Source: a bacterium
GTDB lineage: Bacteria; Patescibacteriota; CPR2; UBA1875; JAJYID01
Assembly: GCA_021790235.1 (NCBI GenBank)
Contig: JAJYID010000001.1
Location: 107,228-171,227, forward strand
Length of the DNA: 64,000 nt
Reading direction: 5' to 3'
The position numbers were made by a program, and so were the translations under genes. Below are positions 3,818-60,202 of this stretch, piece by piece (the stretch's first letter is position 1; the number at the start of each line of letters is the position of its first letter). Below the pieces are notes generated by a model. The model was not told where the DNA came from and made no database searches. It saw nothing but the letters and a program-made list of their open reading frames with translations.

Positions 3818-3946
3818 ATGCCTGAACTTCCCGAAGTTGGTACTCCTCACTGTCATTTCGTGCCCCGACACGGAAACCATAACAATAAGATTCCCGATCG
3901 GGTCGGGAATGACATAAAAGAAAATGCCAGAATTGCCAGAAGTTGA
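3818..3946 (+). other. 42-codon upstream ORF beginning with a second copy of the mutM start (MPELPEV), preceded by a strong SD (aggag)
   Basis: 'atgcctgaacttcccgaagttg' at 3818 versus 'atgccagaattgccagaagttg' at 3924. The uORF reads through the inserted repeat and stops at TGA 3944-3946, out of frame with mutM. Confidence 0.35.
3851..3914. repeat. Full-length miniature hairpin repeat element (64 bp) with TIR tgtcatt/aatgaca and two internal hairpins
   Basis: Sequence is tgtcatttcgtgccccgacacggaaacc...attcccgatcgggtcgggaatgaca. The stems are ttcgtg/cacggaa and attcccga/tcgggaat. Confidence 0.7.
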
Positions 3947-8958: not shown

Positions 8959-9003
8959 TGTCATCCTGAGCCCGCCAGAGGTGGATAGACTCCTTGAAGG
9001 ATC
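8959..9003 (+). repeat. Hairpin repeat family unit
   Basis: Sequence tgtcatcctgagcccgccagaggtggatagactccttgaaggatc lies directly after the DHH gene stop. Confidence 0.55.
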
Positions 9004-10181: not shown

Positions 10182-10208
10182 TGTCATTCTGAATTTGACC
10201 GAAGAATC
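10182..10208 (+). repeat. Hairpin repeat family unit in the rpsO-pnp intergenic region
   Basis: tgtcattctgaatttgaccgaagaatc. Confidence 0.6.
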
Positions 10209-26398: not shown

Positions 26399-27211
26399 GT
26401 GAAGAAGAGAATCGATGTGCTTTTAACTGAAAAAGGGTTCGCTGAAAGCCGTGCTAAGGCGCAGGCTTTTTTGCTGTTAGGGCAAGTCTATGTTGATGCC
26501 AAAAAAGTTGATAAAGCTGGAACTTTGATTGAGGATAACGCTAGTCTTGAATTGAGGGAAAGATTTCCCTATGTTTCCAGAGGCGCTTTAAAAATTCAGA
26601 AGGCTTACGAGGAATTTGGACTGGATTTTAATGAAAAAGTTATTTGTGACATCGGTGCGTCAACCGGAGGATTTACGGACTTTGTGCTGCAACATGGTGC
26701 AAAGAAAGTGTATGCGATTGATGTTGGTTATGGGCAACTTGAGCAGAAATTACGTGAGAACAGTAGGGTGCATGTTATGGAAAGAACTAATTTCCGTGAG
26801 ATAGATTCATGGGACGATTTTTCTAAACGCGTCATCCTGGCCCGTCCAGGATCAAAAAAGTATAAAAACGAGTCAAATTTTGGTCAAACCAGAATGACAG
26901 TTGAGCGAATTAATTTCTTCGTTTGTGACGTTTCGTTTATTTCCCTCAAAAAAATAATTCCTCAGATTAAAAAAATTGTAGATTACCCGATTGAGTGTGT
27001 TTTGCTCATTAAACCGCAATTCGAAGTTGGCAAGGAAATCGCTGACAAAACCAAAGGCGTGATTAAAAACGAGGAAATTCAGAGGTCAGTGGTCGAAGAT
27101 ATTGCGGAGTTCAGCGAGGAGCAAAGGTTTCATGTTGAAGGCATTACCGATTCGCCGATTACTGGTGCCAAAGGGAATAAAGAATTTTTAATCTACTTAA
27201 GTTATAATTAA
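26399..27211 (+). CDS. tlyA: TlyA family rRNA 2'-O-methyltransferase, carrying an in-frame repeat-derived insertion
   Basis: An S4 domain followed by the SAM motif DIGASTGGFTD and then DVSFISL. Confidence 0.85.
   Translation: MKKRIDVLLTEKGFAESRAKAQAFLLLGQVYVDAKKVDKAGTLIEDNASLELRERFPYVSRGALKIQKAYEEFGLDFNEKVICDIGASTGGFTDFVLQHGAKKVYAIDVGYGQLEQKLRENSRVHVMERTNFREIDSWDDFSKRVILARPGSKKYKNESNFGQTRMTVERINFFVCDVSFISLKKIIPQIKKIVDYPIECVLLIKPQFEVGKEIADKTKGVIKNEEIQRSVVEDIAEFSEEQRFHVEGITDSPITGAKGNKEFLIYLSYN
26830..26900. repeat. Full-length hairpin repeat element inside the tlyA coding sequence
   Basis: cgtcatcctggcccgtccaggatc...ggtcaaaccagaatgacag. The TIR is gtcatcctgg/ccagaatgac (9 of 10). It encodes approximately SKRVILARPGSKKYKNESNFGQTRMTV. 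Confidence 0.6.
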
Positions 27212-28934: not shown

Positions 28935-30617
28935 GTGATAGCAGTGAAGAAACTATTCATAATAGTCATTGTCGCACTTGTTGTGGTGATGACACTGGCT
29001 GTCTTTGTCTCGCCGGCAATGGCGGCTTGTGACCTAAATGTCACAAGCTTCGGAATGTCAAGCAATTCAGGACAGGCGGGTGCGGCCTTCGATGTGTACG
29101 GAACATACACGGGAACGGCTGCCCCAACCGGCGACATCCTGTATGTGTTGCCGTCTGATCAGACGGATGTAATTGGGACGTTCAGTGCGACTGGAGGAAA
29201 TATCTCTGGCACAGCGACGATTCCATTAGATGCGACTGAGGGGGGACACCTAATTGACTATGTTCTACCCTTTAGTGATGCAACGTGTGGTGTGTATGGA
29301 CCAATACCTATTAGTACTTACACAGTTGTTGGCGGACCAGTGGCCAGAGATTATTACTGGACGTGGTATGACCAGCAGTCGCGGAATATGACTGACTGGG
29401 TTCTTATGGGCAATCCATCTACCACTAGTACCCTTAGTTTTAGTCTTAATATCGCTGGTAACGCTCAGATTGTTGGTGACCTTGGATATGGAGAAGGTAA
29501 GGTAGGACCACAAGAGACCTTAACTTCGACATATCCGGGAGTTATGGGCGGTCCGGTGAAAGTATCTTCATTAACTGGTGAGAAAGGTTTCGTAAGCCAA
29601 CGAGTACTGTTTGGTAACTCCTTTGAGGAGATACCAGGTATCGAAGAATCCCAGCTTTCTGGGCATTACTATTGGGCCTGGTACGACCAGCAATCTCCCG
29701 GCATGCTTAATTGGGTCCTAGTAGCCAACCCCAGTACCTCAGACGATGTCTACTATCAGATCAAGATTGCCGGCGACGTCAAGGATACCGGCAAGCTTGT
29801 CCCTGGGGATAAAGTTACACCAACCTTCCCGGGCGTCCTAGGCGGACCTGTCGAGGTTACTAGCTGTTCGGCAGCTTTTGACCAGTACGGGAATTGTTCG
29901 GGGACTAATCCCAAAGTCATCGCTTCCCAGCGGGTGCTGTCTAACTATGGTACTGCCTTCAATGAAGTACCTGGCATTCCGGCGAATGAACTTTCCGGAG
30001 ATTATCTCTGGACATGGTATGACAACCAAAGCCCAGGCGCTACTGATTGGGTCCTAGTAGCCAACCCCAGTACCTCAGACGATGTCTACTATCAGATCAA
30101 GATTGCCGGCGACGTCAAGGATACCGGCAAGCTTGTCCCTGGGGATAAAGTTACACCAACCTTCCCGGGCGTCCTAGGCGGACCTGTCGAGGTTACTAGC
30201 TGTTCGGCAGCTTTTGACCAGTACGGGAATTGTTCGGGGACTAATCCCAAAGTCATCGCTTCCCAGCGTAGTATCTGGGGTCCATCCTTTGAGGAGGTGC
30301 CGGGTATGTCGATCGGAAGCCTGTCTTGGGATTATGGTTGGACTTGGTATGACCAAAAGAGTCCTGGTTCTACTAACTGGATTTTGGTGGCCAATCCTGG
30401 TGATACACCTGTAGATTACCAGATTATAATTGGTGGTCAAGTCATGCCGACCAGTCTGGTGAATCCTGGGACGATCTCTGCTCATGGCAGGGTGACCCCC
30501 ACATTTCCAGGCGTGATGGGTGGCCCAGTTGAGATCGTAGCTGATGGTAAGGTGATTGCATCTCAACGAGTGCTCTGGAATGGATACTTTAATGAGGTAT
30601 TAGGGAGACAGTATTAA
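28935..30617 (+). CDS. Secreted protein with four ~105-112-aa modules of an unassigned repeat (W-x-W-Y-D...NPS...PGVxGGPV...ASQR)
   Basis: The signal peptide ends AMA. There is an N-terminal Ig-like region, then four modules starting YYWTWYDQQS, YYWAWYDQQS, YLWTWYDNQS and YGWTWYDQKS. Confidence 0.7.
   Translation: MIAVKKLFIIVIVALVVVMTLAVFVSPAMAACDLNVTSFGMSSNSGQAGAAFDVYGTYTGTAAPTGDILYVLPSDQTDVIGTFSATGGNISGTATIPLDATEGGHLIDYVLPFSDATCGVYGPIPISTYTVVGGPVARDYYWTWYDQQSRNMTDWVLMGNPSTTSTLSFSLNIAGNAQIVGDLGYGEGKVGPQETLTSTYPGVMGGPVKVSSLTGEKGFVSQRVLFGNSFEEIPGIEESQLSGHYYWAWYDQQSPGMLNWVLVANPSTSDDVYYQIKIAGDVKDTGKLVPGDKVTPTFPGVLGGPVEVTSCSAAFDQYGNCSGTNPKVIASQRVLSNYGTAFNEVPGIPANELSGDYLWTWYDNQSPGATDWVLVANPSTSDDVYYQIKIAGDVKDTGKLVPGDKVTPTFPGVLGGPVEVTSCSAAFDQYGNCSGTNPKVIASQRSIWGPSFEEVPGMSIGSLSWDYGWTWYDQKSPGSTNWILVANPGDTPVDYQIIIGGQVMPTSLVNPGTISAHGRVTPTFPGVMGGPVEIVADGKVIASQRVLWNGYFNEVLGRQY
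29710..30268 (+). repeat. Perfect 223-bp direct repeat (29710-29932 = 30046-30268, 336-bp period) inside the secreted-protein gene
   Basis: Base-by-base comparison of the two segments shows no mismatch. Confidence 0.9.
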
Positions 30618-35866: not shown

Positions 35867-37642
35867 ATGGCAGTTGGTAACGATAATAAATTAGAAGATC
35901 TACTAGTCAAGCTGGGTTTGATTACACAAAAACAGCTTGATCTTGTTAAGGTTGAAAGCGCAGAATCAGGAAAACCGATTACAGAGATTCTAGGTAACAT
36001 GCCTGATATCTCAAAAGAAGCTTTGACAAAGGCGATAGCTGTGACTTTGGAGCTTCCTTATGTTGACCTTTCTGCAAAAAAAATTGATAAAAATATTCTT
36101 GATATCATCAATGGAGATCTAGCCGGAAAGTACAAACTTATTCCCTTTGGTAAGGTTGGCGATTTTCTAAATGTAGCTATGGTTGATCCTAACAATATCA
36201 TGGCCATCGAATATATTGAGAAAAAAACAGGTCTTAAGCTGAAGCCCTACCTTGCATCTCAAGAAAGCATTGAAAAAGCTTTAAAACAATATGACGATGA
36301 TTACTCAGTAGAAGTTCAGAATGTGATTGGAACCCTTGAAAAACCGCCAGAAATTAATCTTAAGGAAGATAAGGGAAAGCAAGGAGAAGCTGCCGTTATT
36401 ACCCAAGATGCTCCGATTACCAGAGCTTTAAACACTATCCTAGAATATGCAGCCAAATCCAGGGCTTCCGATGTTCATATTGAGCCAAGAGAGAAATTGA
36501 TAAAAGTTAGATATCGTATAGATGGTATTTTGTATAATACCATGACTCTGCCGAAACATATCCATCCTGCTCTCGTGTCCAGGATTAAGATACTCTCAAA
36601 CCTTAAAATCGATGAACATCGTATTCCTCAGGATGGGCGTTTTCAGCTAAATCAGGATGGACGAGAAATAGATCTTCGTATTTCTATTACCCCGATAGTT
36701 TATGGTGAAAAAGTGGTAATACGTCTTTTAGATAAATCTACAGGTATTATTACGCTTGATAATCTCGGGATAAAGGGACGAGCTTTTAGAATTATAGAGG
36801 AAGGGACTAAAAAACCTCATGGTATGATTTTGGCAACCGGTCCGACCGGGTCCGGTAAGTCCACCTCGCTGTATGCGATTTTGTCAGAGATTAATAAACC
36901 TAGTGTCAATATTATCACAGTTGAAGATCCAGTAGAATATAACATCGACGGTATTAACCAGATCCAGGTAAATAATGCCGTCGGACTGACTTTTTCTTCA
37001 GGTTTACGTTCAATCTTGCGTCAAGACCCCGATGTAATTATGGTTGGAGAGATACGCGACAAGGAAACAGCTGAACTAGCCGTTCAGTCGGCTCTGACGG
37101 GGCATACCGTCCTTTCTACCCTTCATACGAACTCTGCCGCCGGTGCTTTACCTCGTCTCTTAGAGATGGAAATCGAACCATTTTTAATCGCTTCCACCGT
37201 CAATACTGTTATAGCGCAGCGTCTGGTTCGTAAAATATGTGATCATTGCAAAGAAGAATATCAGGCGAGTCCAGCTTTAACTCAGGCAATTAAAAAGTCA
37301 CTAAAAGATGTCTTGCCGTCGAAGAAAGATCCCTCTTCAAAAACTAGAGAACTTGGTTTCGATAAATTACCGAATACTGAAAATGAGGTATTTACACTTT
37401 ATAAAGGTAAAGGTTGTGATCAGTGTAAAAATACAGGTTACTGGGGTAGGACAGGAGTTTATGAGATTTTTAGCATTAATGAAAAGATGGAGAATCTTAT
37501 CACGACAGAAGCTACTTCGAGCGATATTCAAGATCAGGCGATAAAAGATGGAATGATCACTATGCGTCAAGACGGTTTTTTAAAAGCTCTGGCAGGTATT
37601 ACCACATTGGAGGAGGTGGTAAGAACTACGACTGAAGACTAG
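35867..37642 (+). CDS. pilB: Type IV pilus assembly ATPase PilB (GspE family)
   Basis: T2SSE N-domain, Walker A GPTGSGKST, and a tetracysteine motif CDHC...CDQC. Confidence 0.92.
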   Translation: MAVGNDNKLEDLLVKLGLITQKQLDLVKVESAESGKPITEILGNMPDISKEALTKAIAVTLELPYVDLSAKKIDKNILDIINGDLAGKYKLIPFGKVGDFLNVAMVDPNNIMAIEYIEKKTGLKLKPYLASQESIEKALKQYDDDYSVEVQNVIGTLEKPPEINLKEDKGKQGEAAVITQDAPITRALNTILEYAAKSRASDVHIEPREKLIKVRYRIDGILYNTMTLPKHIHPALVSRIKILSNLKIDEHRIPQDGRFQLNQDGREIDLRISITPIVYGEKVVIRLLDKSTGIITLDNLGIKGRAFRIIEEGTKKPHGMILATGPTGSGKSTSLYAILSEINKPSVNIITVEDPVEYNIDGINQIQVNNAVGLTFSSGLRSILRQDPDVIMVGEIRDKETAELAVQSALTGHTVLSTLHTNSAAGALPRLLEMEIEPFLIASTVNTVIAQRLVRKICDHCKEEYQASPALTQAIKKSLKDVLPSKKDPSSKTRELGFDKLPNTENEVFTLYKGKGCDQCKNTGYWGRTGVYEIFSINEKMENLITTEATSSDIQDQAIKDGMITMRQDGFLKALAGITTLEEVVRTTTED

Positions 37643-37723
37643 AAATATTACTTTTTAATTATAAGTCTTTAAATTTTAAACTGATAGTATTAGAATAAGA
37701 ATTATAGAAGGAGGGCTGGGAAG

Positions 37724-38797
37724 ATGCCGGAAACAACTAAACTAAAAATTGAAAATTTTCTAGAAGAGGTTATAAAACGTGATGCCAGTGATCTTCATTT
37801 AACGGTTGGTGTACCTCCTATGCTCCGAGTAGATGGTTCGCTGCAACCTATTGAAGATGCCAAAGGGCTTACTGACAAAGATGTTAAAGAATTGACTTAT
37901 TCCATTTTAGATGATGTTCAAAAAGATATTTTAGAAAGGGATAAAGAAGTAGACTTTTCGTTCACATATGGGGATCTCGCCAGATTTAGGGCAAATGCTT
38001 ATCACCAAAAAGGTAACGTCGGTTTAGCACTTCGTCTCATTCCGGTTAATATCAGAAGTCTATCACAGCTAGGTATGCCTCAGATAGTTGAAAAATTTAC
38101 AGATTTTTCTCGCGGCTTGGTACTTGTAACCGGTCCGACCGGGTCCGGTAAATCCACTACCTTAGCAGCCATGATTGATAAAATCAACTCAGAACGCGCA
38201 TGCCATATCATTACAGTTGAGGATCCGATCGAATATACTCATTCGCATAAAAAATCTCTAGTTGAACAGCGAGAAGTGCATTATGATACTCGTTCATTTG
38301 CGGCTGCACTCCGCAGTGTTCTCCGTGAAGATCCGGATGTTGTTTTAATCGGTGAAATGAGAGATTTGGAGACTATTGCCGCGGCTATTACTATTGCCGA
38401 AACAGGTCATCTGGTCTTGGCTACTTTGCATACAAACAGCGCTGCCCAGTCAGTTGACAGGATTATTGACGTCTTTCCACCCCATCAGCAACAACAGATC
38501 AGAGTGCAGCTTTCTAATATTTTACAAAGTATAGTTTCTCAAAGATTAATTCCTGCTATCGGAGGTGGAAGATTGGCGGCTGCGGAGATTTTGGTAGTGA
38601 ATGCTGCGGTTAGAAATATCATTAGAGAACAGAAGACACATCAGATAGAAGCAGTGATTCAGACCGGTTCTTCAGAAGGTATGCAATCTATGGATAGAAC
38701 TCTGGCAAACTTGATTAAAACTGGACGTATTACTCTGGAAGAGGCAAAGGGCTATGCAATCGATATCAAAGAGCTTGAACGTCTCTTACATGGATAA
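37724..38797 (+). CDS. pilT: Type IV pilus retraction ATPase PilT
   Basis: ASDLHLTVG, GPTGSGKSTT, and HLVLATLHTNSA. Confidence 0.92.
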   Translation: MPETTKLKIENFLEEVIKRDASDLHLTVGVPPMLRVDGSLQPIEDAKGLTDKDVKELTYSILDDVQKDILERDKEVDFSFTYGDLARFRANAYHQKGNVGLALRLIPVNIRSLSQLGMPQIVEKFTDFSRGLVLVTGPTGSGKSTTLAAMIDKINSERACHIITVEDPIEYTHSHKKSLVEQREVHYDTRSFAAALRSVLREDPDVVLIGEMRDLETIAAAITIAETGHLVLATLHTNSAAQSVDRIIDVFPPHQQQQIRVQLSNILQSIVSQRLIPAIGGGRLAAAEILVVNAAVRNIIREQKTHQIEAVIQTGSSEGMQSMDRTLANLIKTGRITLEEAKGYAIDIKELERLLHG

Positions 38798-38842
38798 AAA
38801 TTAGCCGTAAAAACAATCCCTACAAACACTTAACGGAGTAAA

Positions 38843-40051
38843 ATGAAAGAATTTACATATAAAGCGAGAAATAAAGACGGGACGGCCACTCAAGGCATAG
38901 TAGAAGCGGAAACCGAGGTGGCAGCTTCAAATCTTCTGATTTCCAAAAACATTTTTCCGGTTGATATAAAAGAAGGTACCAAAACCTCCTTTGAAATACC
39001 TTTTTTAAAAAAGGTATCCAGAAAAGATAAAGTCTTCTTTCTGAGACAGTTGGCAACCATGACGGGTGCCGGTCTGCCTATAGCTCAAGCCCTTTCAACA
39101 CTATTGGCTCAAACCTCAAAGAAAAATGTTAAGAAAATGATTGAGCAAATGAGCCGTGACATTGAAGCCGGCGGTACGCTTTCTGCTGCTTTCGCCGCTT
39201 TTCCTGATGTGTTTAATAAAACCGATACCAATATGATAGCTTCGGGTGAAGCTAGTGGTAAAGTAGATGAGGTACTCTTGCACATGGCAAATCAGACAGA
39301 AAAGAGCTATCAAACTTTGAAAAAAATTAGAACCGTTTTTATTTACCCGGCCTTCCTAGCAGTCGTTGTGTCGGGTGTGGTGGGAATCTTAATAACATTT
39401 GTTTTGCCGCAAATGAAAAATCTCTACTCAGGGTTTGGAGCCAATCTGCCTTTGCCGACTAGAATTTTAATCGGGACTAGCGACTTTCTTGCCAAATATT
39501 TCATATTAGTGGTTATACTTGTCATTGCTATTTATATCTCACTTAGGATATATATTAAGACAAATGAAACAGGCAAGTATTTCTGGCACAGACTAAAGAC
39601 AAGTATACCGATAATCTCTAGCTTTATCCGTCTTTCTTATCTTTCTATTATTACGAGAACCTTGGCCAGCTTGGTGGCTTCAGGCGTACCTATTCTTGAT
39701 TCGCTGGATATAGTGTCAGAGGCTATGCAAAATGTCATATATCGCGATAGCTTAAAAACGGTTCGAGACAAGGTCAAACAAGGTAAGTCTTTATCTGCAG
39801 CTTTTAAGGAAGATGAGGTATTCCCAATATTGGTTTCCCAAATGATGGGAGTTGGTGAGCAAACGGGAGAGCTTGATAATATGCTTTCAAATATGGCAGA
39901 GTATTATGACAACGAGCTAGATAGCATGACCAAAAATCTGCAGTCTCTTCTGGAACCGGTTATGATAGTGATAATGGGAGGGATAGTCGGGACTATTATT
40001 ATTTGTATCTTGCTTCCGGTATATAGTCTTCAGAATTTTGTAGTCCACTAA
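38843..40051 (+). CDS. pilC: Type IV pilus platform protein PilC (GspF family)
   Basis: Two T2SSF repeats and three transmembrane regions. Confidence 0.9.
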   Translation: MKEFTYKARNKDGTATQGIVEAETEVAASNLLISKNIFPVDIKEGTKTSFEIPFLKKVSRKDKVFFLRQLATMTGAGLPIAQALSTLLAQTSKKNVKKMIEQMSRDIEAGGTLSAAFAAFPDVFNKTDTNMIASGEASGKVDEVLLHMANQTEKSYQTLKKIRTVFIYPAFLAVVVSGVVGILITFVLPQMKNLYSGFGANLPLPTRILIGTSDFLAKYFILVVILVIAIYISLRIYIKTNETGKYFWHRLKTSIPIISSFIRLSYLSIITRTLASLVASGVPILDSLDIVSEAMQNVIYRDSLKTVRDKVKQGKSLSAAFKEDEVFPILVSQMMGVGEQTGELDNMLSNMAEYYDNELDSMTKNLQSLLEPVMIVIMGGIVGTIIICILLPVYSLQNFVVH

Positions 40052-58501: not shown

Positions 58502-58954
58502 ATGAAAATATTATCTAAAAGCTCTAATGAAACGATTAAACTAGGTGAAGAAGTTGGCAAAAAGCTCTCCGGTGGAGAGATCTTTGCGCTTTACGGCGAT
58601 CTTGGCGGCGGGAAAACCCAGTTTACCAAAGGCATTGCTCTAGGCCTTGGCATCTCCGATCATATTCTTTCCCCGACATTCACCATTCGCCGCGAATATG
58701 AAGGTAAGAGACTGCATTTGCTGCATTACGATTTCTACCGATTTGAAGCTCCAGATCGGGAGCTAATTGAAAGTATGAAAGAAGGTATTGATCTTGATAA
58801 TGTGACGGCGATAGAATGGGCGGAGCGAGTGGAGAAACATTTGCCGAAAGACACGATTCAAGTCAGTTTTAAATACATTTCGGAAAACGAACGGGAAATA
58901 GAGATAGAAAATTATAATCCAGAACGTCATTCTGAGGAACGACGAATCTTATGA
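58502..58954 (+). CDS. tsaE: tRNA t6A biosynthesis ATPase TsaE
   Basis: GDLGGGKTQFTKG P-loop. The last approximately 10 codons (ERHSEERRIL) are encoded by a repeat unit. Confidence 0.85.
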   Translation: MKILSKSSNETIKLGEEVGKKLSGGEIFALYGDLGGGKTQFTKGIALGLGISDHILSPTFTIRREYEGKRLHLLHYDFYRFEAPDRELIESMKEGIDLDNVTAIEWAERVEKHLPKDTIQVSFKYISENEREIEIENYNPERHSEERRIL

Positions 58955-58993
58955 GATCTTTCCTTGTCCTTTCGGGAAGTCGTTCAAGATGAT
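58925..58993. repeat. Two inverted hairpin repeat units (58925-58948 on +, 58955-58993 on -)
   Basis: cgtcattctgaggaacgacgaatc on the + strand, and the reverse complement atcatcttgaacgacttcccgaaaggacaaggaaagatc. Confidence 0.65.
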
Positions 58994-59007
58994 AGAAAGA
59001 AAAGATT

Positions 59008-59289
59008 GTGTCATATTACGTCTACATTTTAGCAAATAGAAATAACAAAGTGCTTTATACGGGTATGACTAATAATCTCGAAAGAAGAATTTTCGAACAC
59101 AAAAATAAATTGATTAGGGGTTTTACCGAAAAATATAATTTGAATAAATTAGTATATTTTGAGGAATTTCCTACACCAAAAGAGGCCATAGAAAGTGAAA
59201 AAATGATTAAGGGATGGATTAGAAAAAAGAAAATTAAACTGATAGAATCAAAAAATATAAACTGGGATGATTTATCATTGTCATTCTGA
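59008..59289 (+). CDS. GIY-YIG nuclease family protein (UPF0213/YhbQ-like)
   Basis: YYVYILANRNNKVLYTGMTNNLERRIFEHK (GIY...YTG...R..EH), with a GTG start. Confidence 0.85.
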   Translation: MSYYVYILANRNNKVLYTGMTNNLERRIFEHKNKLIRGFTEKYNLNKLVYFEEFPTPKEAIESEKMIKGWIRKKKIKLIESKNINWDDLSLSF

Positions 59290-59411
59290 CGAAGGAAGAA
59301 TCTTTTTTGAGATCCTTCGTCGTTCCTCCTCAGGATGACAACTAAAGTATTAAGGATGACAATAATCAAAGACAATGTAACTAAGCCGGTCATTCTGAGG
59401 AACGAATAATC
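59279..59411. repeat. Cluster of hairpin repeat units (59279-59302 on +, 59311-59340 on -, 59388-59411 on +)
   Basis: tgtcattctgacgaaggaagaatc; the reverse complement tgtcatcctgaggaggaacgacgaaggatc; and ggtcattctgaggaacgaataatc. Confidence 0.7.
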
Positions 59412-59425
59412 TCATAAGAAAAATT

Positions 59426-59842
59426 ATGCAAAATACATTAGTCATAGACACATCGGATAAAGTTGCCAGATTTGGTTTGTTTTGTGATAACGAATTGGCA
59501 GACAGGCTGAGGTGGGAAGCGCATCGGGAGCTTTCCAAGACATTCTATACAAAACTCGATGAACTATTGGGCCACAACGGATTAAATTACCAGGATTTAA
59601 ATTCGATTATCGTTGTTTGCGGTCCCGGATCTTTCACTGGTCTGCGAATTAGCATCGTCATTGTAAATGCCTTTTCTTATGCTCTAAATATTGAAACAGC
59701 TGGTGTGGTTCAGGAAGAAAAAATGACTCTAAAAGAAATTTTTAACGCCGGTCAAAAAAAACTAAAAAAGAACCAAATTCTCGAACCTTTTTACGGCCGA
59801 AAACCAAATATTACCCAGAGAAAGAAGAAATTTCCGTCTTGA
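59426..59842 (+). CDS. tsaB: tRNA t6A biosynthesis protein TsaB (short form)
   Basis: LVIDTS... and VVCGPGSFTGLRISIVIVNAFSYAL. Confidence 0.8.
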   Translation: MQNTLVIDTSDKVARFGLFCDNELADRLRWEAHRELSKTFYTKLDELLGHNGLNYQDLNSIIVVCGPGSFTGLRISIVIVNAFSYALNIETAGVVQEEKMTLKEIFNAGQKKLKKNQILEPFYGRKPNITQRKKKFPS

Positions 59843-59954: not shown

Positions 59955-60202
59955 GATTCTCGTGGGATGTTTATCCGACCCTTGGCGGGCAGGAATGACA
60001 GGCTGGGTGGATATAAGCAAAAAACAAGGATTTCTAAATAAAGTATGACAGAAAATTGCTAGAAAATTTGGCTTTGGACAGGTATTTTTAGTTATTTCTC
60101 GGTACTCACATTGAGTCATCTTGAACGAAGTCGAGGGATCCCTTAAAATCAGGGAAAGGGGTTTCTCCGTTTGCCACTAGCATGGTGTTGGTCGAAATGA
60201 CA
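59955..60202. repeat. Nest of hairpin repeat units upstream of rny (59955-60000 on -, 60114-60140 on +, 60160-60202 on -)
   Basis: Reverse complement tgtcattcctgcccgccaagggtcggataaacatcccacgagaatc; agtcatcttgaacgaagtcgagggatc; and reverse complement tgtcatttcgaccaacaccatgctagtggcaaacggagaaacc. Confidence 0.65.

What the first reader, a model, noticed from the sequence alone, without database searches (positions are those of the whole stretch)
58925..59411. GIY-YIG nuclease gene wedged between tsaE and tsaB and bracketed by direct and inverted repeat units
tsaE (ends 58954) and tsaB (starts 59426) are functional partners and are commonly adjacent. Here they are separated by a 93-aa GIY-YIG nuclease gene. 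The insert is bracketed by near-identical direct units, cgtcattctgaggaacgacgaatc (58925-58948) and ggtcattctgaggaacgaataatc (59388-59411). Additional inverted units lie at 58955-58993, 59279-59302 and 59311-59340. The left unit provides the last codons of tsaE and another unit provides the stop of the GIY-YIG gene. This looks like a selfish nuclease cassette travelling with, or targeting, the hairpin repeats. It gives a testable link between the repeat family and a specific enzyme.
Basis: partly seen in the sequence, partly recalled or inferred. Interest (0 to 1): 0.58.

Follow-up and report, generated by a model that had tools for sequence, protein, structure and literature searches.

The report
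Ssn hairpin-cutting nuclease with its repeats

Summary
A 93-aa single-domain GIY-YIG gene (59008-59289) lies between tsaE (58502-58954) and tsaB (59426-59842). It is surrounded by five full repeat units and one half unit of the form TGTCAT-stem-loop-stem-ATC.

The protein is 46% identical, without gaps, to the Neisseria gonorrhoeae SsnA ortholog. It keeps Y6, Y17 and E64. Chenal et al. 2025 (PMC11893778) showed that Ssn enzymes bind such hairpins (NTS/SRM) in single-stranded DNA and cut just upstream of them.

Among 80 metagenomic homolog loci, 57 carry units on both sides of the gene. The usual arrangement is unit(+)-gene-unit(-). Stem covariation supports pairing.

Closest relatives L003 and L009 share the tsaE-ssn-tsaB order. 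L005, L010 and L012 have tsaE and tsaB directly adjacent, so the gene looks like an old insertion. It has since been under purifying selection (dN/dS 0.04-0.16).

Two points go slightly beyond the paper. These units have a 5-bp stem closed by GA...GA, and the published SRM search pattern misses them. Near-identical unit-ssn-unit blocks also occur in unrelated genomic contexts, and units sit in frame inside tlyA and tsaE.

Verdict: a new member of a known kind, of modest interest.

The parts
58502..58954 (+). tsaE (150 aa). Its last 9 codons and stop (RHSEERRIL*) come from repeat unit 58926-58948 plus TTATGA.
   Evidence: Pfam TsaE E 1e-32 and TIGR00150; translation. The C-terminus varies among relatives after the conserved EREIEI and runs into a unit in 5 of 6.
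58926..58948 (+). Left flanking SRM-like unit, GTCATTCTGAGGAACGACGAATC. It is the canonical upstream (+) unit but has one stem-breaking substitution relative to L003 and L009 (GAAGAATC changed to GACGAATC).
   Evidence: covariance model R1 hit E 0.2.
58955..58993 (-). Reverse unit (variant ATCATCTTGA...GGAAAGATC). With 58926-58948 it forms a tail-to-tail doublet across the palindrome TCATGA. It is present in L009 and absent in L003.
   Evidence: R1 hit E 1.1.
59008..59289 (+). ssn: a 93-aa single-domain GIY-YIG nuclease of the Ssn family, with a GTG start. Public gene calls start at the internal Met20 and cut off the GIY motif.
   Evidence: PF01541 E 4e-18. 46% identical with no gaps to the N. 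gonorrhoeae SsnA ortholog, E 2e-29. Y6, Y17 and E64 conserved. The start codon aligns with the ATG in L003. P0001 is 74 aa.
59280..59302 (+). Perfect unit GTCATTCT-GA-CGAAG-GA-AGAATC. It supplies the last codons and stop of ssn and is absent in L003 and L009.
   Evidence: Best covariance-model hit in the window, E 2.5e-5.
59311..59339 (-). Canonical downstream (-) unit, GTCATCCTGAGGAGGAACGACGAAGGATC. It is conserved in L003 and L009.
   Evidence: Covariance-model hit E 2.5e-4.
59351..59362 (-). Half unit (TTGTCATCCTTA), 21 nt upstream of unit 59339(-) on the minus strand.
   Evidence: Direct repeat D7. The same half-unit arrangement lies upstream of 29 of 277 units in other loci.
59389..59411 (+). 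Right flanking direct unit, GTCATTCTGAGGAACGAATAATC, with one stem-breaking substitution relative to L003 and L009. It sits 14 nt before the tsaB start.
   Evidence: R1 hit E 0.23.
59426..59842 (+). tsaB, a short form (138 aa) that matches only positions 2-93 of the 212-position TsaB profile.
   Evidence: TIGR03725 E 2e-22; PF00814.
59955..60201 (.). Three further units of the same superfamily in the tsaB-rny spacer: 59955-59999(-), 60115-60140(+) and 60160-60201(-). They have long loops or ...ACC/ATCCC ends.
   Evidence: R1 hit at 60113-60142, E 3.9. The 59999(-) type recurs as an in-frame insert in L009 tsaE.
3852..3913 (.). Dispersed doublet between the DJ-1/PfpI gene and fpg: 3852-3878(+) and 3889-3913(-). 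The latter, GTCATTCCCGACCCGATCGGGAATC, resembles the Neisseria NTS.
   Evidence: R1 hit E 0.018. DNA fold -7.6 kcal/mol, z -3.3. Neighbouring genes.
8960..9003 (+). Dispersed unit 8 nt after the stop of a DHH-family gene.
10183..10208 (+). Dispersed unit between truB and pnp.
   Evidence: R1 hit E 0.001.
26831..26898 (.). Unit doublet (26831-26853(+) and 26872-26898(-)) lying in frame inside the tlyA-like methyltransferase gene.
   Evidence: The alignment to TlyA structures breaks exactly here: query residues 139-171 face 7 residues in 3hp7.

Best explanation
This is a resident Ssn/SRM system.

Shown here:
- The 93-aa protein is an Ssn-family GIY-YIG enzyme.
- The TGTCAT-stem-loop-stem-ATC units are its cognate Ssn-related motifs.
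- The gene with its flanking units entered between the translationally coupled tsaE and tsaB genes in an ancestor of this lineage. It has been kept since under purifying selection, while individual units around it were gained, lost and mutated.

Inferred from experiments on Neisseria and Wolbachia homologs:
- When DNA is single-stranded, the strand carrying GTCAT...ATC folds into a short hairpin.
- The enzyme binds the stem and the C that follows it, then nicks that strand a few bases 5' of the GTC. It does not act on duplex DNA or RNA.

Inferred, and weaker:
- In the cell this would fragment or process unit-bearing ssDNA, such as incoming transforming strands or replication and repair intermediates. 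That would modulate recombination near the repeats.
- The same activity may account for the spread of the units.
For: Protein identity:
- GIY-YIG domain, E 4e-18.
- 46% identical over 89 aa with no gaps to the 94-aa N. gonorrhoeae SsnA ortholog, which is itself flanked by NTS repeats.
- Y6, Y17 and E64, the residues whose mutation abolished SsnA cleavage, are at the same positions.
- Only distant similarity to the UPF0213 structures 1zg2 and 1ywl.

Repeat identity:
- The units keep the NTS features that matter experimentally: GTC before the palindrome and C after it.
- A model built from units flanking foreign homologs finds the window units.

Association:
- 57 of 80 homolog loci are flanked on both sides. 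The nearest upstream unit is '+' in 54 of 63 loci. The nearest downstream unit is '-' in 55 of 68.
- Unit density is 4 per kb within 250 nt of the gene, against about 0.3 per kb beyond 1.25 kb.

Pairing:
- 45 of 52 signature matches have perfectly complementary arms, drawn from 9 different arm sequences.
- The inner mini-hairpin covaries.

History:
- L003 and L009 share tsaE-ssn-tsaB.
- L005 has tsaE and tsaB overlapping, with no units. L010 and L012 have them adjacent.
- dN/dS is 0.04-0.16.
Against: - No biochemistry exists for this protein or for this class of unit.
- Nearest-neighbour DNA folding gives weak energies for the window units (-1 to -4 kcal/mol), no better than shuffles. The predicted minimum-energy structure is often a different fold. 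Pairing therefore rests on covariation, not on thermodynamics.
- The published SRM search pattern finds none of these units.
- The two flanking direct units each carry a stem-breaking substitution in this genome.
- The L009 copy has an in-frame stop, so the system may be dispensable.
- The cellular role in Patescibacteria is unknown. The transformation role was shown only in N. meningitidis.
Confidence: 0.78

Rival explanations
1. This is an active selfish transposon. The unit-ssn-unit block would be an autonomous mobile element, with the GIY-YIG protein as its transposase. Lone units and doublets would be non-autonomous derivatives that it mobilises, as RAYT does for REP/REPIN elements or IS200/IS605 TnpA does for its hairpin ends.
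For: - ssn is present or absent at the tsaE|tsaB junction among related species.
- In other lineages, ssn genes 85-98% identical in nucleotide sequence sit in contexts with no detectable flank similarity.
- The shared block in L106/L131 is 405 nt, from the left unit to about 48 nt beyond the right unit. In L096/L106 it starts one base before the left unit.
- Units occur in frame inside tlyA (window) and tsaE (L009).
- Homologs are 65-77% identical across phyla.
- The published paper raises the same idea.
Against: - At this locus the gene is single-copy in 64 kb.
- It is syntenic in the three closest genomes, with synonymous sites near saturation and dN/dS 0.04-0.16. That is the pattern of a long-resident host gene.
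- Its flanking units are partly decayed.
- No target-site duplication or strand-transfer chemistry is known for GIY-YIG enzymes.
- The units flanking the gene are inverted, so each strand carries only one cleavable site per block.
- Only one weak homolog was found in viral contigs.
Confidence: 0.12
2. This is a decaying remnant. The nuclease and its repeats arrived once and no longer function in this genome.
For: - Both bracketing units have stem-breaking substitutions relative to L003 and L009.
- L009 carries an in-frame TAA at codon 53.
- The start codon here is GTG, after a unit inserted between the old unit and the start.
Against: - The window ORF is intact, with all catalytic residues.
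- dN/dS is 0.04-0.09 against L003 and L009.
- Two perfect units abut the gene's 3' end.
Confidence: 0.06
3. The units act as RNA elements (terminators, stabilisers or a riboregulator), and their position next to a GIY-YIG gene is incidental.
For: - The units are short hairpins, mostly between genes or at gene 3' ends.
- One unit has G-T pairs in its stem (60115-60140).
Against: - No Rfam family matches.
- There is no T-tract and no terminator call.
- Units flank the gene in opposite orientations, so a transcript would carry different strands of the motif.
- Units also lie inside coding regions.
- SsnA does not bind RNA.
- The association with ssn across 80 loci is far too strong to be incidental.
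Confidence: 0.02
4. This is a classical GIY-YIG homing endonuclease that cut the duplex tsaE-tsaB junction and copied itself in.
For: - The gene is free-standing and small, and sits between two conserved genes.
- A weak NCBIfam hit to group I intron endonucleases, far below the cut-off (E 3e-4, 20.7 bits against a 56-bit cut-off).
Against: - The protein is only 93 aa and has no DNA-binding domain.
- It is not in an intron, intein or phage.
- Homologs sit in many unrelated contexts, always with hairpin units rather than a conserved target gene.
- Family members do not cut dsDNA.
Confidence: 0.02

Closest known systems
Ssn nucleases (SsnA, cd10448) with NTS/SRM hairpin repeats (Chenal et al., Nat Commun 2025, PMC11893778)
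   Same: - A single-domain GIY-YIG protein of about 94 aa.
- 46% identical and colinear with the N. gonorrhoeae ortholog, with the same Y6, Y17 and E64.
- The gene is flanked on both sides by oriented hairpin repeats that begin GTCAT and end ATC.
- The repeats are dispersed through the genome, mostly outside genes.
   Different: - The host is a Patescibacteria (CPR) genome.
- The units have a 5-bp stem closed by GA...GA around a small or variable loop, instead of the 8-9-bp GC-rich NTS stem.
- The published SRM search pattern finds none of them in the window and hits only 2 of the 80 homolog loci.
- No biochemistry has been done for this enzyme-repeat pair.
RAYT transposases with REP/REPIN elements, and IS200/IS605 TnpA
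   Same: - A single small gene is flanked by, and associated with, short hairpin repeats that also occur dispersed as singlets and inverted doublets.
- The enzyme recognises hairpins on single-stranded DNA.
   Different: - The enzyme fold and chemistry differ entirely: GIY-YIG hydrolytic nicking, not a HUH/Y1 covalent intermediate.
- No strand transfer is known for Ssn.
Rickettsia palindromic elements (RPE; from my own knowledge: Ogata et al. 2000)
   Same: Short palindromic repeats are inserted in frame into protein-coding genes without destroying them. Here the cases are tlyA in the window and tsaE in L009.
   Different: - The sequences are different.
- RPEs were not linked to a nuclease when described.
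- The Ssn paper lists Rickettsia among SRM-rich genera, so the two may be connected. I did not test this.
UPF0213 / YhbQ-type GIY-YIG proteins (PDB 1zg2, 1ywl)
   Same: A stand-alone GIY-YIG domain of about 95-105 aa.
   Different: - The similarity is only distant (E 2e-6 and 4e-4).
- It is a different subfamily.
- I know of no repeat association for it (from my own knowledge).
GIY-YIG homing endonucleases (I-TevI type)
   Same: The same catalytic domain, and a gene that can appear as an insertion.
   Different: - Those enzymes have a linker and a DNA-binding domain and cut duplex DNA at a long target.
- They live in introns or phages.
- None of this applies here.

Membership tests
Ssn nuclease family (Chenal et al. 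2025) | Single-domain GIY-YIG protein of about 94 aa (under 150 aa) | tested here: met
   93 aa. PF01541 covers residues 3-76, and there is no other domain.
Ssn nuclease family (Chenal et al. 2025) | BLAST similarity to Neisseria SsnA at E < 1e-10 over at least 75% of the protein (the paper's criterion) | tested here: met
   Tested against the N. gonorrhoeae ortholog (L163:1501-1785, 94 aa, NTS-flanked). 46% identity, 89 aa, no gaps, E 2e-29 pairwise. tblastn gave E 2e-19 with 96% coverage in a 7.3-Gb database. The N. meningitidis sequence CAX49033.1 itself was not available.
Ssn nuclease family (Chenal et al. 2025) | Catalytic residues Y6, Y17 and E64 (mutants lose cleavage) | tested here: met
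   Y6, Y17 and E64 are present at identical positions in the window protein and the gonococcal ortholog.
Ssn nuclease family (Chenal et al. 2025) | Best CDD model is cd10448 (GIY-YIG_unchar_3) | not testable with these tools
   No CDD search was available. The indirect evidence is only a distant match to UPF0213 structures.
Ssn nuclease family (Chenal et al. 2025) | SRM in both 500-bp flanks, as defined by the published pattern HGTCWYN(0-2)YYVSBRHN(0-5)WNVSBRGN(0-2)RNCYNB | tested here: not met
   0 matches in the whole window. The same code does find the NTS consensus. Only 2 of 80 homolog loci match. The pattern requires a GC-rich stem that these units lack.
Ssn nuclease family (Chenal et al. 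2025) | Site-specific cleavage of ssDNA only, next to the hairpin | not testable with these tools
   This needs purified protein and oligonucleotides.
NTS/SRM hairpin repeats | Oriented motif: GTC immediately 5' of a palindrome that starts AT, and C immediately 3' of it | tested here: met
   Nearly all full units in the window have GTC-AT...AT-C. The exceptions are 58955-58993, which starts ATC, and the ...ACC-ended variants 3852-3878 and 60160-60201. In 101 units (with flanks) from foreign loci, the T before GTC (95 of 101) and the T after ATC (91 of 101) are conserved without having been selected for.
NTS/SRM hairpin repeats | The palindrome forms a hairpin | tested here: inconclusive
   Covariation is strong: 45 of 52 matches are perfectly paired using 9 arm types, and the inner stem is 94.5% paired with 0 of 500 shuffles reaching that. 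Predicted DNA folding energies of the window units are no better than shuffles, except for 3889-3913.
NTS/SRM hairpin repeats | Multi-copy, dispersed, enriched next to ssn | tested here: met
   About 15 units in 64 kb, nine of them within 1.3 kb around ssn. The density gradient around 80 homologs is.
RAYT/REP (REPIN) systems | HUH/Y1 tyrosine transposase | tested here: not met
   The protein is GIY-YIG. The resemblance is only in organisation.
GIY-YIG homing endonucleases | C-terminal DNA-binding domain and residence in an intron, intein or phage | tested here: not met
   93 aa with a single domain. TIGR01453 scores 20.7 bits against a 56-bit cut-off. One weak viral hit.

The most novel reading that the evidence does not exclude
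Ssn blocks (unit-ssn-unit) may be autonomous mobile elements, with lone units and doublets as their non-autonomous derivatives. That would make Ssn the first GIY-YIG enzyme to drive spread of REPIN-like hairpin repeats, including in-frame insertion into essential genes of streamlined CPR genomes.

The evidence is compatible but does not prove it:
- Shared blocks break at the outer edge of the units.
- Near-identical genes sit in unrelated contexts.
- Units sit in frame inside tlyA and tsaE.
- Recurrent half-unit duplications lie upstream of full units and could be footprints of the process.
Probability: 0.2. Interest if true: 0.7.

Novelty: new member of a known kind. Interest (0 to 1): 0.3.

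Why it matters
The main point, a small GIY-YIG nuclease tied to a family of hairpin repeats, was published in 2025. This locus therefore adds an example rather than a discovery. It still has three uses.

- It extends the Ssn/SRM system to Patescibacteria.
- It shows that the commonest repeats around this branch of the family (5-bp stem, GA...GA clamp, GNA-type mini-hairpin) escape the published search pattern. Repeat counts and the 71% association figure in that paper are therefore probably underestimates.
- The relatives provide a clean occupied-versus-empty site. Together with block-boundary comparisons in other lineages, this bears on the open question of whether Ssn blocks are mobile.

New enzyme-hairpin pairs are also of practical interest as ssDNA-cutting tools.

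Tried and rejected
- **Rfam.** The whole window at gathering threshold and the locus at E up to 10 gave only tRNAs and chance hits. Nothing was found in the tsaE-tsaB spacer of L036 and L007.
- **Hammerhead-like reading.** I considered reading GTC...CTGA..GA...GAA as a hammerhead-like core. I dropped it because there is no stem II and no Rfam hit.
- **Published SRM pattern.** 0 hits in the window.
- **Generic hairpin detector.** GTCA plus a stem of at least 4 bp was too noisy: 28 hits against about 19 in simulations. I replaced it with the GA-clamped detector and the covariance model.
- **DNA folding energies.** Not informative for these short AT-rich stems.
- **Other library scans.** NCBIfam and PADLOC gave no meaningful family for the nuclease. 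PDB holds no Ssn structure, only UPF0213.
- **Viral contigs.** One weak hit.
- **Promoter and terminator scan.** Nothing notable.
- **Literature by sequence string.** Searching for the unit strings found only unrelated primers.
- **Unreadable preprint.** A 2026 preprint that mentions Ssn (10.64898/2026.09.22.753630) could be found by search but not opened.
- **Paper supplements.** The supplements of the Ssn paper are not held. The SsnA sequence was instead recovered from a gonococcal chromosome filed as a plasmid in PLSDB.
Full report

Yes. On the + strand the region reads as follows:
- tsaE, 58502-58954 (150 aa; Pfam TsaE E 1e-32).
- A 93-aa GIY-YIG ORF, 59008-59289, with a GTG start (PF01541 E 4e-18).
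- A short tsaB, 59426-59842 (TIGR03725 E 2e-22).
- rny, from 60229.

The unit GTCATTCTGAGGAACGACGAATC (58926-58948) recurs at 59389-59411 with 2 mismatches and at 59280-59302 with 3 mismatches. No such match occurs in 100 shuffles. Reverse-strand units lie at 58955-58993 and 59311-59339. A half unit lies at 59351-59362(-).

The left unit encodes the end of tsaE, and unit 59280 supplies the stop of the nuclease gene.

One correction is needed.

**2. What the repeats are.**

All units share the plan T-GTC-AT(Y)(Y)(Y)-loop-(R)(R)(R)AT-C-T. Similar units lie elsewhere in the window:
- 3852 and 3913, before fpg.
- 8960, after a DHH-family gene.
- 10183, before pnp.
- 26831 and 26898, inside tlyA.
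- 59955-60201, before rny.

A strict detector finds 7 units against 0.19 expected. Four of them lie in the 486 bp of the finding.

**3. The same repeats flank homologs everywhere.**

The protein has more than 1,600 relatives, 65-77% identical among the top hits, across very different phyla. I fetched 80 metagenomic loci and found:
- 63 of 78 have a unit within 300 nt upstream.
- 68 of 75 have one downstream, and 57 have both.
- The nearest upstream unit is on the gene's strand in 54 of 63 loci. The nearest downstream unit is on the opposite strand in 55 of 68.
- Unit density falls from 4 per kb near the gene to about 0.3 per kb beyond 1.25 kb.

The commonest form is TGTCAT-TTC-GA-(N-C-GNA-G-N)-GA-GAA-ATC-TT.

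Pairing is supported by covariation. Among sequences chosen only by their unpaired signature, 45 of 52 have perfectly complementary arms, using nine different arm sequences. The inner two pairs are 94.5% paired with compensatory changes, and 0 of 500 shuffles reach that.

A covariance model built solely from these foreign units places its two best window hits at the 3' end of the nuclease gene (E 2.5e-5 and 2.5e-4). It also recovers 10181, 3887, 58924, 59387, 58953 and 60113.

Protein similarity tracks the stem type of the neighbouring units: 74% identity within a type against 59% between types, with 0 of 2000 permutations as extreme. This test is not corrected for phylogeny.

**4. What is known.**

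A literature search led to Chenal et al., Nat Commun 2025 (PMC11893778). They describe Ssn, a family of single-domain GIY-YIG proteins of about 94 aa (CDD cd10448). The genes are flanked by oriented hairpin repeats. In Neisseria the repeat is the NTS, CGTCATTCCCGCGMAVGCGGGAATCYRG. More generally they are called Ssn-related motifs (SRM).

Their findings for purified SsnA from N. meningitidis (with homologs from two other Neisseria species and from Wolbachia also shown to cut ssDNA beside their own repeats):
- It binds the hairpin only in single-stranded DNA.
- It cuts a few bases upstream of it.
- It does not act on duplex DNA, RNA or the complementary strand.
- The C after the palindrome matters most for binding. 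The three bases before the palindrome (GTC) matter most for cutting.
- Y6A, Y17A and E64A abolish cutting.
- In N. meningitidis the enzyme lowers transformation by NTS-bearing DNA.
- The authors note that NTS-ssnA-NTS looks like an insertion sequence and compare it with RAYT/REP.

**5. Membership.**

PLSDB happens to hold gonococcal chromosomes labelled as plasmids. One of them gave the N. gonorrhoeae ssnA locus: a 94-aa ORF embedded in NTS repeats.

- The window protein aligns to it from residue 1 with 46% identity and no gaps, E 2e-29.
- It has Y6, Y17 and E64 at the same positions.
- A metagenomic homolog 66% identical to the window protein (L097) sits within about 450 bp downstream of two copies that match the NTS consensus exactly.
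- The UPF0213 structures are only distant relatives.

One criterion fails. The published degenerate SRM pattern finds nothing in the window and hits only 2 of the 80 homolog loci. It demands a GC-rich stem. The units here are a different structural class: a 5-bp stem closed by GA...GA around a small or variable loop. They keep the experimentally important GTC and trailing C.

I could not run CDD.

**6. Insertion or not?**

A scan of species-representative genomes with tsaE, followed by tblastn and inspection of the junctions, gave this picture:

| Locus | rny identity | Arrangement |
|---|---|---|
| L003 | 96% | tsaE-ssn-tsaB, ssn 83% identical, with units |
| L009 | 94% | tsaE-ssn-tsaB, ssn 82% identical, with units |
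| L005 | 92% | tsaE and tsaB overlap at ATGA; no nuclease, no units |
| L010, L012 | 66-67% | tsaE and tsaB adjacent |
| L036 (rny 92%), L007 | – | No nuclease; units directly after tsaE, then an unrelated conserved spacer |

The simplest history is one insertion in the common ancestor of the window, L003 and L009.

The gene has since been under purifying selection. dN/dS is 0.04-0.16, with synonymous sites near saturation. It is as well conserved as its neighbours.

The units turn over faster than the gene:
- L003 shows the canonical unit(+)-ssn-unit(-) arrangement plus a further direct unit. A 30-nt perfect direct repeat brackets the cassette there.
- The window and L009 have an extra reverse unit between the left unit and the start codon. 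This changes the start from ATG to GTG.
- Only the window has the unit that now provides the stop codon.
- The window's two bracketing units each carry a stem-breaking substitution.
- L009's gene has an in-frame TAA at codon 53.

**7. Evidence on mobility elsewhere.**

- Many pairs among the 80 loci have nuclease genes 85-98% identical in nucleotide sequence, while sequence 300-1500 nt away on either side shows no similarity.
- L106 and L131 share only a 405-nt block, running from just before the left unit to about 48 nt beyond the right unit.
- In L096/L106 the block begins one base before the left unit.
- Units also occur in frame inside genes. A doublet in the window's tlyA creates a 26-residue insertion relative to solved TlyA structures. 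A 75-nt insert sits in L009's tsaE.

These facts fit a mobile or horizontally exchanged block and mobile units. They do not show the mechanism, and they do not show that the nuclease is responsible.

**8. Mechanism and rivals.**

The best-supported reading is a resident Ssn/SRM pair. The enzyme recognises the hairpin form of the GTCAT strand in single-stranded DNA and nicks 5' of it. That step is inferred from homologs, not shown here.

The cellular role here is unknown. The window encodes type IV pilus ATPases and a platform protein (35867-40051), so DNA uptake is plausible. That is only context.

Rivals:
- An active selfish transposon is not excluded, but it fits this particular locus poorly.
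- A decaying remnant is unlikely, given the intact ORF and the low dN/dS.
- An RNA element and a homing endonuclease are both contradicted. The evidence is unit orientation, the lack of Rfam or terminator signals, the protein's single domain, and the family's inactivity on RNA and duplex DNA.

A weak point is that DNA folding energies of the window units are no better than shuffles. Nearest-neighbour models do not credit tandem G.A pairs or GNA loops (from my own knowledge), so I rely on covariation instead.

**9. Verdict.**

This is a new member of a known kind, in a new phylum-level host. Its repeat class is one the published search pattern misses. The locus offers useful comparative material on the open mobility question. 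Interest is modest.

Noticed in passing
window 26831-26898 (inside ORF 26399-27211): A repeat doublet lies in frame inside the tlyA-like rRNA methyltransferase gene. It adds about 26 residues between the conserved NFR and DVSFISL motifs. Alignment to TlyA structures (3hp7, 3opn) splits exactly there. This resembles in-frame palindromic elements in Rickettsia genes.
   Followed up: partly
L009 4160-4240: The tsaE of relative L009 carries a 75-nt in-frame insert containing a reverse unit (GTCATTCCCACCCGCCAAAGGTCGGGTAAACATCCGGCGGGAATC). It is of the same subtype as window unit 59955-59999. The flanks VIRREY and VIRRSS look like a diverged duplication of about 18 nt.
   Followed up: partly
L009 4592-4870: The ssn gene of L009 has an in-frame TAA at codon 53 (E53). 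It is either a recent inactivation or an assembly error.
   Followed up: no
window 59351-59362(-); L084-L160, various loci: Half units (the 5' arm plus the start of the loop) lie 18-40 nt upstream of 29 of 277 full units, sometimes in tandem. In L101 and L112 there are two half units before the full unit. A loose downstream control gave 14. They could be a footprint of slippage or processing at the hairpin. They also allow an alternative hairpin with the same 3' arm.
   Followed up: partly
L036 4460-4700; L007 1120-1370; L006 4485-4543: A conserved non-coding block of about 230 nt (79% identical between L036 and L007) sits between tsaE and tsaB in relatives that lack ssn. It has no Rfam match and is absent from the window.
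   Followed up: partly
window 59426-59842: TsaB is half-length here (138 aa, matching positions 2-93 of a 212-position profile). Where the locus extends that far, the close relatives match it over about the same length (L003, L005, L007, L009, L036).
   Followed up: no
window 59008-59289; P0001: Public gene calls for this nuclease start at the internal Met20 (74 aa) and remove the GIY motif. The GTG at 59008 aligns with the ATG start in L003.
   Followed up: yes
L082-L161 and window: The published SRM search pattern matches only 2 of 80 loci encoding close homologs and nothing in the window. A structure-based definition finds units beside most of those loci (57 of 80 on both sides). Published SRM counts are therefore probably underestimates for this branch of the family.
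   Followed up: yes
window 35867-40051: Type IV pilus or competence-type genes lie here: a PilB-like ATPase with an MshEN domain, a PilT-like ATPase and a PilC-like platform protein. This is relevant context only, because SsnA affects transformation in Neisseria.
   Followed up: no
window 29778-29828 and 30114-30164: An identical 51-nt stretch occurs twice, 336 nt apart, inside ORF 28935-30617. It indicates an internal repeat in that protein.
   Followed up: no
L163 (NZ_CP119140.1): PLSDB lists 2.17-Mb Neisseria gonorrhoeae chromosomes as plasmids. This is what allowed the ssnA locus to be retrieved.
   Followed up: yes
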